This document shows, one piece after another, positions 2,729 to 5,640 of a stretch of 64,000 nt of DNA; positions within the stretch are counted from its first letter, which is position 1, and every line of letters begins with the position of its first letter. The DNA lies in assembly GCF_055900595.2 (NCBI RefSeq), contig NZ_CM148325.1; one strand, given 5' to 3'. The notes under the pieces were generated by a model. That model did no database searches, was not told where the DNA came from, and was given only the letters and a program-made list of their open reading frames with translations. The position numbers and the translations under genes are program-made.

Positions 2729-3538
2729 CTAATTCGGGCGCTCACAAAGTGGGGCTAAATATTCATATAACGTTGCTGACGAAAAGGAGACATCGCCACA
2801 GGCACGTACGGGCATCACTGGCATTAACGCATTACAAATAACCATCTCATCTGCCTGCAACGCCTCTTCCAGAGTGGCTTGCACTTCGACAAGCTGATAA
2901 GAGGATTGTGCCAGTAAACGGATACAGAATTGTCGCATAATGCCGTTAACACCTGCCTGCTCTAGTCGCGGCGTATAAACTACATTGCCCTTCCGCCAGA
3001 ACAAATTAGCCGCACAGCATTCCGTAACCCACCCTTCGCTGTCAAGGACCAGCGCCTCATCAGCGTTTGTCTGCTCAAGATGAGAGCGGATCAATACTTG
3101 TTCAAGCCGATTAAGATGTTTAATACCTGCAAGATGAGGATTGCGCCCCAGCCGCACCGGGCTTAGCGCCAACATCATCCCCTCGTTACGCAAACGATCG
3201 TAATGTGCAGGATAAGCCGTAACGGAGAGAATCCGCGTTGCCGGTCCGCTGTTCAATGTGCTGTACCCTCGCCCGCCACTACCGCGACTGATCACGACCT
3301 TCAGCACACCATTCTGCTGTTCTGCTGCCAGCGTTTTCATCTCTTGTTCAAGCTGAGGCCAGAAGTCACAGGAAATCATCAACCGCTGACAAGCATCCTG
3401 TAGTCGCTGGATATGTGCCGATAACAAACTGACTTTACCGTCGATAACTCTGGCGGTGGTAAAACAACCATCACCAAACTGCGTTGCTCGATCGCTTACT
3501 GCCAGCGATTCCTGCTTATGACCGTTAATTAAGAACAT
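2729..3538 (-). CDS. pabC: aminodeoxychorismate lyase
   Basis: 269 aa fold-type IV PLP enzyme; AAGGAG ribosome-binding site upstream of ATG at 3538. Confidence 0.93.
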
Positions 3539-3645
3539 ACCGGCTCCTTATCAGAGAATTGTTAGTGTGGCAGCATGTTCACTACAGAACAAGTCGGAAT
3601 AAAAGCTAATAAATATCCTCCGGCATAGCCGGAGGTTTTTCAAAT

Positions 3646-4358
3646 GCGCCTGTAAGGCTCTGTTACCAGCCGCGCCCTAACAGGCGCATACGATCTGACA
3701 TTTGCATTCAACTTCGTTACTTACGGCCCGTAAACGGGCTGCCCGGATATGGAATCGATAACTGCTCCCCCATTTTATCCTCTTCAAGCTGGTGCTTTAT
3801 GTAGTCCTGTATCTTCGCCGTGTTCTTACCCACCGTATCGACATAGTACCCTCGGCACCAGAACTCCCTGTTTCTGTATTTGAATTTCAAATCCCCAAAC
3901 TGCTCGTAAAGCATCAGACTGCTTTTCCCTTTCAGATATCCCATAAAGCCGGATACGCTCATTTTGGGTGGGATTTCCACAAGCATATGGATATGATCTG
4001 CGCAGCACTCTGCTTCCAGAATCCGTACGCTTTTCCACTCACACAGCTTTCTCAAAATACTGCCTATCGCCCTACGCTTCTCTCCGTAAAACGCCAGTCT
4101 TCGGTATTTCGGCGCAAAAACTATGTGATATTTACAGTTCCAGCGGGTGTGCGCTAAGCTCTTTTCGTCCCCCATTGGGACCCCCTTTTGATTTCTTGTT
4201 TGACACTTGCAGTTGCCAGACCGCAAGGTGTTTTAACAAATCAAAAGGGGTTTTAATAACTGGCTCAAAGCTGAAAGCTTTCCGGAACCCCCAGCCTAGC
4301 TGGGGGTTTTCTGTGCACAAGAAAAAAGGCCCGCAAGCGGACCTTTTATAAGGGTGGG
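3646..4358 (-). mobile_element. IS200-type insertion sequence (IS200/IS605 family, tnpA only); boundaries approximate (about +/-40 bp)
   Basis: Intact Y1/HuH transposase ORF, stem-loop sequestering its ribosome-binding site (around 4180..4240), perfect palindrome AACCCCCAGCCTAGCTGGGGGTT at 4284..4306, imperfect hairpins near both ends. The fabF-pabC gap is 830 bp here versus roughly 120 bp as I recall for K-12. Confidence 0.75.
3717..4175 (-). CDS. tnpA: IS200 transposase TnpA (Y1 HuH single-strand transposase)
   Basis: 152 aa from MGDEKSLAHTRWNCKYHIVFAPKYRR, with HIHMLVEIPP HuH motif and catalytic-Tyr region; ORF track begins 17 codons upstream. Confidence 0.9.
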   Translation of the reverse strand: MGDEKSLAHTRWNCKYHIVFAPKYRRLAFYGEKRRAIGSILRKLCEWKSVRILEAECCADHIHMLVEIPPKMSVSGFMGYLKGKSSLMLYEQFGDLKFKYRNREFWCRGYYVDTVGKNTAKIQDYIKHQLEEDKMGEQLSIPYPGSPFTGRK

Positions 4359-4368
4359 AAATGACAAC

Positions 4369-5640
<1,272 letters not shown>

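What the first reader, a model, noticed from the sequence alone, without database searches (positions are those of the whole stretch)
3539..4368. IS200-type element inserted between fabF and pabC, upstream of tmk and holB
The fabF-pabC spacer is 830 bp and contains an intact 152-aa IS200 TnpA, its ribosome-binding-site-sequestering stem-loop and a perfect palindrome, where K-12 (as I recall) has only about 120 bp. IS200 is characteristic of Salmonella and occurs only sporadically in E. coli. The insertion sits between the fab cluster and the pabC-mltG-tmk-holB genes, and its internal terminator-like hairpins could change read-through from fabF into that downstream block.
Basis: partly seen in the sequence, partly recalled or inferred. 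Interest (0 to 1): 0.5.

Follow-up and report, generated by a model that had tools for sequence, protein, structure and literature searches.

The report
IS200 copy behind the fabF terminator
The extra 711 bases between fabF and pabC are an ordinary, intact copy of the small mobile element IS200. It sits exactly at the end of the fabF transcription terminator, which is where nearly every sampled relative of this element sits next to some gene.

Summary
The fabF-pabC spacer is 830 bp here and 119 bp in K-12. The extra 711 bp (window 3608-4318, minus strand) are a complete IS200-group insertion sequence. It has a 152-aa Y1/HuH transposase (H61-I-H63, Y125), a perfect 10-bp left-end hairpin, a stem-loop that hides the ribosome-binding site (Rfam STnc490, 146 bits), and a right-end hairpin.

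The element is already known. Copies 100% identical in DNA are annotated elsewhere in E. coli. A 96%-identical subtype, IS200C, occupies the same nucleotide position in 219 of 5,426 complete E. coli genomes. The two occupied loci carry different flanking haplotypes, and the closest relative of the window has an empty site, so the site was probably hit twice independently.

The insertion point is the last T of the fabF terminator T-tract, 50 nt after the stop codon. This is typical. In 97 of 118 other IS200-type copies from many phyla, and in 7 of 7 E. coli sites, a terminator-like hairpin plus T-run ending in TT abuts the left end.

An effect on fabF-to-pabC read-through is plausible but untested. 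Novelty is low; the terminator targeting is a modestly interesting by-product.

The parts
4369..5610 (-). fabF (beta-ketoacyl-ACP synthase II), the upstream gene, co-oriented with the element
   Evidence: ORF list. Annotated as fabF in matching E. coli records.
4319..4347 (-). Native fabF intrinsic terminator: hairpin 4324-4347 plus T-tract TTTTTTCTT, which ends at 4319. It is intact, and the IS starts at the next base.
   Evidence: Terminator scan. Fold -13.3 kcal/mol, z = -3.97. The same sequence is present in the empty K-12 site.
3608..4318 (-). Complete IS200-group insertion sequence, 711 bp (2-nt TT ambiguity at the ends)
   Evidence: Junctions against K-12...CCTTTTTTCTT^AGCTTTTATT.... 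Copies 100% identical in DNA at other loci in E. coli. 96.1% identical to the IS200C at the same site in MS 196-1.
4286..4308 (-). Left-end hairpin: perfect 10-bp inverted repeat with a 3-nt loop, at IS nt 11-33. In Salmonella IS200 this hairpin is a bidirectional terminator that shields tnpA. By family analogy it is also the TnpA-binding hairpin.
   Evidence: I5. PMC4513863 places the terminator at nt 12-34. The 24-mer AAACCCCCAGCTAGGCTGGGGGTT had exact matches in 120 stretches of GTDB genomes from many phyla.
4182..4250 (-). [quoted passage not shown]
   Evidence: Fold -40.6 kcal/mol, z = -5.97. Inverted repeat I1. Function shown for Salmonella IS200 in PMC4513863.
4185..4308 (-). Rfam STnc490 match, covering the left-end hairpin and the 5'UTR stem-loop
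   Evidence: 146.4 bits against a gathering score of 56, E = 1.4e-31, full model 1-124.
4167..4256 (+). [quoted passage not shown] Inferred by homology only.
   Evidence: Description of art200 in PMC4513863, mapped onto the near-identical sequence. No promoter-like site was called by the scan.
3717..4175 (-). tnpA: 152-aa Y1 HuH transposase, intact
   Evidence: Pfam Y1_Tnp 9.1e-37. NCBIfam transpos_IS200 144 bits. HuH at residues 61-63 and Y125. PDB relatives 2ec2, 2f4f and 2a6m at E = 2e-23 to 3e-19.
3644..3689 (-). Second inverted repeat in the right-end region: 14-nt arms, 93% complementary. Role unknown.
   Evidence: the repeat finder I2.
3608..3635 (-). Right-end hairpin CCTCCGGC-TAT-GCCGGAGG (3617-3635) plus tail ATATTTATT (3608-3616). 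It looks like a terminator on both strands.
   Evidence: Terminator scan, both strands. Fold -15.9 kcal/mol, z = -4.25. In Y. pestis copies the conservation stops exactly after ...TATTTATT.
3539..3607 (-). The 69 bp of native spacer retained next to pabC, including the pabC ribosome-binding site
   Evidence: Aligns to the K-12 spacer downstream of the insertion point. No sigma-70-like promoter was called there.
2729..3538 (-). pabC, first gene of the downstream block pabC-mltG-tmk-holB
   Evidence: ORF list. Annotation of matching records.

Best explanation
The extra DNA is a full-length, apparently functional IS200-group insertion sequence of the IS200/IS605 family. Its only gene, tnpA, encodes a Y1 HuH transposase.

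By family analogy (inferred), the transposase moves one DNA strand by 'peel and paste', binding the hairpins near each end of the element and inserting into single-stranded DNA on the lagging-strand template. The copy carries all the known self-silencing devices of IS200: the left-end hairpin/terminator, the 5'UTR stem-loop that hides the ribosome-binding site, and the region that encodes the antisense RNA art200.

It landed at the last T of the fabF intrinsic terminator T-tract, 50 nt past the fabF stop codon and in the same orientation as fabF. It left the terminator and the 69 bp before pabC intact. That position is the normal landing site of this IS group: a GC hairpin followed by a T-run ending in TT, which is also what the element's own right end looks like.

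Because the target is a structure rather than a locus, a second IS200 subtype (IS200C) has hit the same nucleotide in another E. coli lineage.

The effect on the host is probably small. At most, the element adds one or two further termination signals to the read-through that links acpP-fabF to pabC-mltG.

The confidence of 0.9 is for the identity and position of the element. That the terminator targeting is enzymatic I put at about 0.55-0.6, and that the two hits were independent at about 0.85.
For: Shown directly:
- Insert size and junctions against the empty sites of K-12 and N96.
- Transposase family and catalytic residues.
- Left-end, 5'UTR and right-end structures.
- Copies identical in DNA at other E. 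coli loci, after osmC and after fdnI.
- The site is polymorphic: occupied in 219 of 5,426 genomes.

Independent hits at the same site:
- With the IS removed, the window's pabC-fabF haplotype differs from the IS200C carrier MS 196-1 at 46 of 2,171 sites.
- It differs from the empty N96 at only 16 sites.
- The two IS subtypes differ at 28 alignment positions and by 4 amino acids.

Terminator targeting:
- 97 of 118 distinct left flanks pass a strict test for a hairpin plus T-tail abutting the IS. These come from Y. pestis, Vibrio, Citrobacter, Mailhella, and MAGs of Bacillota, Elusimicrobia and Oxalobacter.
- The same test passes at 5% of random TT sites and 10% of T-rich sites.
- Mean folding energy of the last 45 nt is -18.9 kcal/mol against about -8 for controls.
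- Positions -1 and -2 are T in 118 and 117 of 118 flanks.
- 81 of 113 flanks have a co-directional ORF ending within 200 nt, mostly 30-75 nt away.
- 7 of 7 E. coli sites show the same pattern: fabF, thrL attenuator, carB, tonB, osmC, fdnI and an island locus.
- In Y. pestis some copies sit directly after another copy's right end.

Strand: the window's plus strand has GC skew of -0.045, so the element's top strand has the polarity of the lagging-strand template.

Literature:
- IS200 anatomy and repression (PMC4513863 and PMC5435999).
- Terminator-like sequences are enriched upstream of IS200/IS605 elements (preprint 10.1101/2025.07.22.666184).
Against: - No transposition, transcription or binding was measured for this copy.
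- Terminator adjacency could partly reflect survivorship: insertions behind terminators are harmless and keep tnpA silent. It need not be enzymatic targeting.
- My rule for placing the IS boundary looked for 'TT' followed by G or A, which slightly favours T at -1 and -2.
- The flank sample is dominated by a few genomes (34 flanks from Y. pestis, 14 from Vibrio ruber).
- Gene conversion between IS copies could mimic two independent insertions.
- The peel-and-paste details and the role of the hairpins are inferred from IS608 and ISDra2. They have not been shown for IS200 itself.
Confidence: 0.9

Rival explanations
1. Single event. The window's insertion and the IS200C insertion in 219 genomes descend from one old insertion at the fabF terminator. 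It was later lost by precise excision in most lineages, and its sequence diverged or was overwritten by gene conversion from other IS200 copies.
For: Position and orientation are identical. Elements of this family can excise precisely (family knowledge). Genomes carry many IS200 copies that could act as conversion donors, up to 35 per genome.
Against: The IS subtypes differ by 3.9%, spread over the whole element. The flanks differ by 2.1% and group the window with the empty-site strain N96. Copies of the window's subtype identical in DNA exist at other loci in unrelated strains, which implies recent movement. Recurrent use of terminators is the rule for this IS group.
Confidence: 0.12
2. Survivorship only. 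IS200 inserts at any T-rich single-stranded site. Copies behind terminators are simply the ones that persist, because they disrupt nothing and are shielded from read-through.
For: tnpA expression is deleterious and tightly repressed (PMC4513863). The preprint reads the upstream terminators as limiting transposase expression. The distance from the hairpin's GC core to the insertion point is not fixed: it ranges over 5-9 nt.
Against: The pattern is precise to the nucleotide and fixed in orientation. The left end always abuts the T-tail, never the A side or the loop, and 82-95% of copies have a hairpin against 10% of T-rich control sites. The element's right end is itself a hairpin plus a T-rich tail ending in TT, and it is reused as a target in tandem copies. 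Insertions sit between the attenuator and the structural genes at thrL-thrA, and between pheL and pheA in Yersinia (PMC3082878). These are not obviously harmless places.
Confidence: 0.25
3. Domesticated insulator. The copy is kept because it changes expression of pabC-mltG-tmk-holB, by tightening termination after fabF or by supplying a promoter or small RNA.
For: Read-through from acpP-fabF into pabC-mltG exists in K-12 (PMC6131387). The left-end hairpin stops about 85% of impinging transcripts (PMC5435999). IS200 5'UTR-derived small RNAs regulate host genes in Salmonella (PMC5435999 and PMC12594629). The site is occupied in 4% of complete genomes.
Against: No outward promoter-like site was found. 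The closest relative lacks the insert. The same kind of placement occurs behind unrelated genes, which fits target preference and not locus-specific benefit. There are no expression data.
Confidence: 0.08
4. Inactive relic. The copy is a fossil that can no longer move.
For: IS200 is described as essentially immobile in laboratory tests (PMC4513863 and PMC12594629).
Against: The ORF, catalytic residues and both ends are intact. It is 100% identical in DNA to copies at different loci in other strains. Truncated relics look different; for example, the left-end-only remnants in L030, L035-L037 and L121.
Confidence: 0.1

Closest known systems
IS200 of Salmonella enterica (IS200 group, IS200/IS605 family)
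   Same: About 710 bp. One 152-aa Y1 transposase with Y125. Left-end terminator hairpin at about nt 11-33. SD-sequestering 5'UTR stem-loop. Full-length match to STnc490. No terminal inverted repeats.
   Different: The host is E. coli. I had no Salmonella reference sequence for a direct identity figure.
IS200C as annotated by NCBI PGAP in E. coli (for example MS 196-1 and CFT073)
   Same: Same architecture. In 219 complete genomes it has the same insertion point and orientation in the fabF-pabC spacer.
   Different: 96.1% DNA identity, with 28 differing alignment positions including one extra T at the right end. Four TnpA substitutions: D3N, L27Q, A28V, G31R. It sits in a different flanking haplotype. 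PGAP labels copies identical to the window's element only at family level.
IS1541 of Yersinia pestis
   Same: Identical left-end hairpin 24-mer and the same right end...GGATATTTATT. The 34 fetched Y. pestis loci contribute to the pooled terminator result. From memory only: Odaert et al. 1998 (J Bacteriol 180:178) reported terminator-like stem-loops at IS1541 sites. That paper is not held in the library.
   Different: 86.8% DNA identity. Far higher copy number, with tandem copies.
IS608 and ISDra2 (IS605 group), the mechanistic paradigms
   Same: TnpA of the same fold and family (2a6m at E = 3e-19, 2xm3 at E = 5e-16). Hairpins near both ends. Insertion 3' of a short target that flanks the left end. 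Bias toward the lagging-strand template (PMC6006769).
   Different: Those elements recognise a fixed 4-5-nt target (TTAC, TTGAT) and also carry tnpB. Here the apparent target is a hairpin plus T-run ending in TT, and there is no tnpB.
Bacterial group IIC introns
   Same: From general knowledge, not tested here: they also home to the 3' side of intrinsic-terminator stem-loops.
   Different: They are retroelements with an RNA-based mechanism and are unrelated in sequence. The comparison concerns target choice only.

Membership tests
IS200/IS605 family, IS200 group | Encodes a Y1 (single-tyrosine) HuH transposase of the TnpA_IS200 type | tested here: met
   Pfam Y1_Tnp 9.1e-37 over model positions 2-121 of 121. 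NCBIfam transpos_IS200 144.4 bits against a cut-off of 55.
IS200/IS605 family, IS200 group | HuH motif and catalytic tyrosine present and aligned with solved TnpA structures | tested here: met
   H61-I-H63 and Y125. 'DHIHM' aligns with 'DHIHL', and 'DYIKHQ' with 'KYIEEQ', of 2ec2 and 2f4f. Y125F is catalytically dead in Salmonella TnpA (PMC4513863).
IS200/IS605 family, IS200 group | No terminal inverted repeats; different hairpins near the left and right ends | tested here: met
   Left-end hairpin 4286-4308 and right-end hairpin 3617-3635. The ends, GTGCAC... and ...TATTTATT, are not inverted copies of each other.
IS200/IS605 family, IS200 group | No target-site duplication; insertion 3' of a short target that flanks the left end | tested here: inconclusive
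   At the fabF and osmC sites, where an empty site was compared, and in Y. pestis, 'TT' lies on both sides. A 711-bp element with no duplication and a 709-bp element with a TT duplication cannot be told apart by sequence.
IS200/IS605 family, IS200 group | About 700 bp with tnpA alone (no tnpB) | tested here: met
   711 bp. The only supported ORF is tnpA, and the other listed ORFs overlap it.
IS200/IS605 family, IS200 group | IS200-specific 5' region: left-end terminator, SD-sequestering stem-loop, art200/STnc490 region | tested here: met
   Rfam STnc490 146 bits, full length. Fold z = -5.97.
IS200/IS605 family, IS200 group | Behaves as a mobile repeat: present or absent at a site, with identical copies at other sites | tested here: met
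   Empty sites in K-12 and N96. Copies identical in DNA after osmC and after fdnI. 10,260 places in 2,641 genomes.
IS200/IS605 family, IS200 group | Top strand lies on the lagging-strand template | tested here: met
   Indirect. The window's plus strand has negative GC skew throughout, mean -0.045, and the element is on the minus strand, co-oriented with fabF.
IS200/IS605 family, IS200 group | Transposition through a single-stranded circular intermediate, catalysed by TnpA | not testable with these tools
   Needs biochemistry or genetics. Inferred from IS608 and ISDra2 (PMC6006769 and PMC2806898).
IS200C (named isoform) | Near-identity to the IS200C reference | tested here: inconclusive
   96.1% DNA identity and 148 of 152 amino acids against a PGAP-labelled IS200C copy. 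PGAP labels the identical copies only as 'IS200/IS605 family transposase'. ISfinder was not available.
REP-associated tyrosine transposase (RAYT / TnpA_REP) | Scores above the curated cut-off of the RAYT model and is flanked by REP sequences | tested here: not met
   NCBIfam REP_Tyr_transpos 30 bits against a cut-off of 80. The flanks are IS200 ends, not REPs.

The most novel reading that the evidence does not exclude
IS200-group transposases may select targets by structure. Under this reading, they recognise the DNA form of an intrinsic terminator (a GC hairpin followed by a T-run ending in TT) exposed on the lagging-strand template. This is the same shape as the element's own right end. An A-rich stretch, GAAAA, lies just 5' of both end hairpins and could act as the guide that pairs with the T-run.

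Every terminator or attenuator of a gene co-oriented with replication would then be a landing pad. That would explain why two IS200 subtypes hit the fabF terminator at the same nucleotide, and why copies sit between thrL and thrA or between pheL and pheA. As a by-product, the copy here would damp acpP-fabF read-through into pabC-mltG.
Probability: 0.55. Interest if true: 0.5.

Novelty: already known. Interest (0 to 1): 0.22.

Why it matters
For this window, it matters little. It is a routine IS200 copy of a type that NCBI annotation already labels, at a site already occupied in 219 complete E. coli genomes, and it disrupts no gene.

Two points have some wider value.

1. The element's position follows a rule. 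IS200-type elements sit at the 3' end of intrinsic terminators with nucleotide precision across distant phyla. This makes insertion sites predictable, explains recurrent 'same-site' insertions that could be mistaken for shared ancestry in IS200 typing, and suggests a structure-based target for a transposase whose target was not stated in any of the papers I could read.

2. The copy lies inside a documented read-through unit (acpP-fabF-pabC-mltG) upstream of tmk and holB, which are essential in E. coli (general knowledge). Natural strains with and without it therefore offer a ready test of how much an IS200 insulates downstream genes.

Tried and rejected
- MAFFT placed the K-12 gap wrongly, splitting the terminator. 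I set the junctions by eye and by string search instead.
- My first coordinates for the IS (3606-4316) were 2 nt off. I corrected them to 3608-4318 (and the ruler).
- The promoter scan of 3300-4700 found no sigma-70-like site. I therefore make no claim about a pabC promoter in the retained 69 bp or about an outward promoter from the element.
- The distance from the hairpin's GC core to the insertion point ranges over 5-9 nt, much as in T-rich controls. It gives no evidence for a fixed 'ruler', so I dropped it as an argument.
- The test for opposite-strand ORFs near the left flank was uninformative, with many overlaps with same-strand ORFs.
- The RAYT assignment was rejected: 30 bits against a cut-off of 80.
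- Weak Rfam hits (ctRNA_p42d, asX2, reverse-strand STnc490; E = 0.37-0.85) merely reflect the terminator and palindrome shapes.
- Literature: Odaert 1998, Beuzon 1997, the He 2015 review and Siguier 2014 are not held. Whether terminator targeting of IS200/IS1541 is already established rests on my memory and on one preprint. Several full-text searches found no explicit statement.
- There was no second copy of the element in the 64-kb window.

Full report
**What is there.**
The window runs opposite to the K-12 map. The genes holB, tmk, mltG/yceG, pabC (2729-3538), fabF (4369-5610), acpP, fabG, fabD and fabH are all on the minus strand. The pabC-fabF spacer is 3539-4368, which is 830 bp. K-12 MG1655 has 119 bp there, and so does strain N96, the closest complete genome at 99.1% identity over 19.6 kb.

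Junction comparison shows that K-12 reads ...GGGCCTTTTTTCTT^AGCTTTTATT.... In the window, 711 bp are inserted at the caret, at window 3608-4318. In the sense orientation the insert starts GTGCACAGAAAACCCCC... and ends ...GGAGGATATTTATT. A TT occurs on both sides, so the ends are ambiguous by 2 nt. The insert is either 711 bp without duplication or 709 bp with a TT duplication.

**Identity.**
The only supported gene (3717-4175, minus strand, 152 aa) is a Y1 HuH transposase.
- It matches Pfam Y1_Tnp at 9e-37.
- It matches NCBIfam transpos_IS200 at 144 bits against a cut-off of 55.
- It has H61-I-H63 and Y125, which align with the HuH and Tyr of solved TnpA structures 2ec2, 2f4f and 2a6m.
- It is not a REP-associated transposase: 30 bits against a cut-off of 80.

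The left end carries a perfect 10-bp inverted repeat with a 3-nt loop (4286-4308). It also carries a long stem-loop (arms 4182-4197 and 4235-4250; -40.6 kcal/mol, z = -5.97) that pairs the Shine-Dalgarno sequence AAGGGGG. Rfam STnc490 covers both at 146 bits.

The right end has the hairpin CCTCCGGC-TAT-GCCGGAGG followed by ATATTTATT (3608-3635). This is the anatomy described for Salmonella IS200: a terminator at nt 12-34, a stem-loop at nt 69-138, art200 antisense to the 5'UTR, and an inactive Y125F mutant (PMC4513863).

**How common it is.**
- Copies 100% identical in DNA lie at other E. coli loci, for example just after osmC in strain Ch1 and just after fdnI in many strains.
- IS200-type sequence is found in 2,641 of 5,426 complete E. 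coli genomes, with up to 35 copies per genome. 'Sporadic in E. coli' is therefore an understatement.
- The fabF-pabC site itself is occupied, in the same orientation and at the same nucleotide, in 219 complete genomes. There the element is the one NCBI annotates as IS200C.
- That element is 96.1% identical to the window's. The 28 differing alignment positions are spread along it, and TnpA has 4 substitutions.

**One event or two.**
With the IS removed, the pabC-fabF haplotype of the IS200C carrier MS 196-1 is identical to K-12 (0 of 2,171 sites differ). The window differs from both at 46 sites, and from the empty-site strain N96 at only 16.

Different IS subtype, different flanking haplotype and an empty site in the nearest relative together point to two independent insertions at the same nucleotide. 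One old insertion followed by gene conversion and precise losses is not excluded; I give it about 0.12.

**Why this nucleotide.**
The insertion point is the last T of the T-tract of the fabF intrinsic terminator. The hairpin is at 4324-4347 and the tail TTTTTTCTT ends at 4319. This is 50 nt after the fabF stop codon. The terminator is intact.

To see whether this is typical, I scanned one genome per species (GTDB) for the 24-nt left-end hairpin. Sources included Y. pestis (IS1541), Vibrio ruber, Citrobacter, Brenneria, Mailhella, and MAGs of Bacillota, Peptococcaceae, Oxalobacter and Elusimicrobia.
- Among 118 distinct left flanks, 97 pass a strict test: a perfect stem of at least 5 bp with at least 3 GC pairs, a loop of 3-8 nt, and a T-rich tail that abuts the IS.
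- Most of the other 21 are visibly hairpins with a mismatch or a longer loop.
- The same test passes at 5% of random TT positions and 10% of T-rich positions in the same loci.
- The mean folding energy of the last 45 nt is -18.9 kcal/mol against about -8 for controls.
- Positions -1 and -2 are T in 118 and 117 of 118 flanks, and positions -4 to -6 are T in 72-96%.
- In 81 of 113 flanks a co-directional ORF of at least 100 codons ends within 200 nt, mostly 30-75 nt upstream.
- All seven distinct E. coli sites I examined show the same pattern: fabF, the thrL attenuator in CFT073, carB, tonB, osmC, fdnI and an island locus.

The hairpins differ from copy to copy and are present in the empty sites, so they belong to the host and not to the element.

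**Likely mechanism (inferred).**
In IS608 and ISDra2, TnpA binds hairpins near each end. It cleaves at sites chosen by pairing with a short guide just 5' of each hairpin, and it inserts 3' of a short target on single-stranded lagging-strand template (PMC6006769 and PMC2806898).

Several features here are compatible with that mechanism.
- The left-end and right-end hairpins are related: CCCCCAGC-TAG-GCTGGGGG and CCTCCGGC-TAT-GCCGGAGG.
- Both hairpins are preceded by GAAAA.
- The right end is itself a hairpin plus a T-rich tail ending in TT, which is the shape of the target.
- In Y. pestis some copies sit directly after another copy's right end.
- At the window's left junction, the target T-run is complementary to the AGAAA just inside the element (palindrome I6).
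- The element's top strand has the polarity of the lagging-strand template, since the plus strand has GC skew of -0.045.

I therefore think the terminator shape is recognised by the transposition machinery (about 0.55-0.6). The alternative is that only harmless, well-shielded copies survive (about 0.25). The preprint 10.1101/2025.07.22.666184 reports that terminator-like sequences are most enriched upstream of IS200/IS605 elements, and reads this as limiting transposase expression. From memory, Odaert et al. 1998 noted terminator-like stem-loops at IS1541 sites, but I could not retrieve that paper.

**Consequences for the neighbours.**
In K-12, full-length acpP-fabF transcripts extend into pabC and mltG (SMRT-Cappable-seq, PMC6131387). 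So read-through of the fabF terminator is real.

The insertion leaves that terminator and the 69 bp before pabC untouched. It adds the left-end hairpin, reported to stop about 85% of impinging transcripts in Salmonella (PMC5435999), and the terminator-like right-end hairpin. No promoter-like site was called anywhere in 3300-4700. A reduction of read-through into pabC-mltG is thus plausible, but nothing was measured.

The element is clearly tolerated here, in 219 other genomes, and even between the thr attenuator and thrA in CFT073. This suggests either incomplete polarity or other promoters for the downstream genes.

**Verdict.**

The element is already known and routinely annotated, so interest is low (0.22). 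The by-product is more interesting but only partly new, and needs the experiments listed under next steps. It consists of precise, cross-phylum placement of IS200-type elements at the 3' end of intrinsic terminators, with an apparent double hit at the fabF terminator.

Noticed in passing
L127 (E. coli CFT073, NC_004431.1 1-1658), IS at 301-1011: An IS200C copy sits directly after the thr attenuator (...GCGGGCTTTTTTTT|GTGCAC...). It lies between thrL and thrA, inside the thr operon leader. thrABC expression must therefore cross the element or start within or after it.
   Followed up: partly
L006-L091 (genome-contig loci): The 24-nt left-end hairpin of enterobacterial IS200 is conserved base for base in MAGs assigned to Bacillota, Peptococcaceae, Elusimicrobia, Desulfovibrionaceae (Mailhella), Oxalobacter and Saccharibacteria. 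Most matches lie at contig ends. This is either wide horizontal spread of one IS lineage or mis-binned contigs.
   Followed up: partly
L093, L094, L096, L110 (Yersinia pestis NCTC5923): Head-to-tail tandem IS1541 copies: the left end of one copy starts immediately after ...GGATATTTATT of another. This fits the idea that the right end mimics the terminator-like target.
   Followed up: partly
window 4185-4308 (-): The Rfam STnc490 model matches the tnpA-sense strand and includes the left-end terminator hairpin. PMC4513863, in contrast, describes STnc490/art200 as antisense to the tnpA 5'UTR. The Rfam hit marks the IS200 left end but does not show which strand is transcribed.
   Followed up: no
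window 4307-4324: A 12-nt palindrome spans the left junction (TTTTCTGTGCAC / GTGCACAAGAAA). The host T-tract is complementary to the AGAAA that lies between the IS tip and the left-end hairpin. This could be guide-target pairing or chance.
   Followed up: no
window 2729-5610 against L001, L002, L003: The window's pabC-fabF region differs by 2.1% from K-12, whereas MS 196-1 is identical to K-12 there. The best complete-genome match to 19.6 kb of the window is only 99.1% (strain N96, from a Tibetan pig). The source strain therefore belongs to a lineage poorly represented among complete E. coli genomes.
   Followed up: partly
L030, L035, L036, L037, L121: Truncated IS200 remnants that keep the left end (79-502 nt) but lack the rest. 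Four of the five (L030, L035, L036, L121) still abut a hairpin and T-run; L037 does not pass the test.
   Followed up: partly
L126 986-1400 (K-12 fdnI-yddM spacer): In K-12 this spacer holds two near-identical direct repeats of about 190 bp. Each starts with a terminator-like hairpin (AAATGGCGCTGTAAAAGGCGCCATTTT) followed by REP-like palindromes, and a third copy of the hairpin follows. In other strains the window's IS200 subtype sits after the equivalent hairpin.
   Followed up: no
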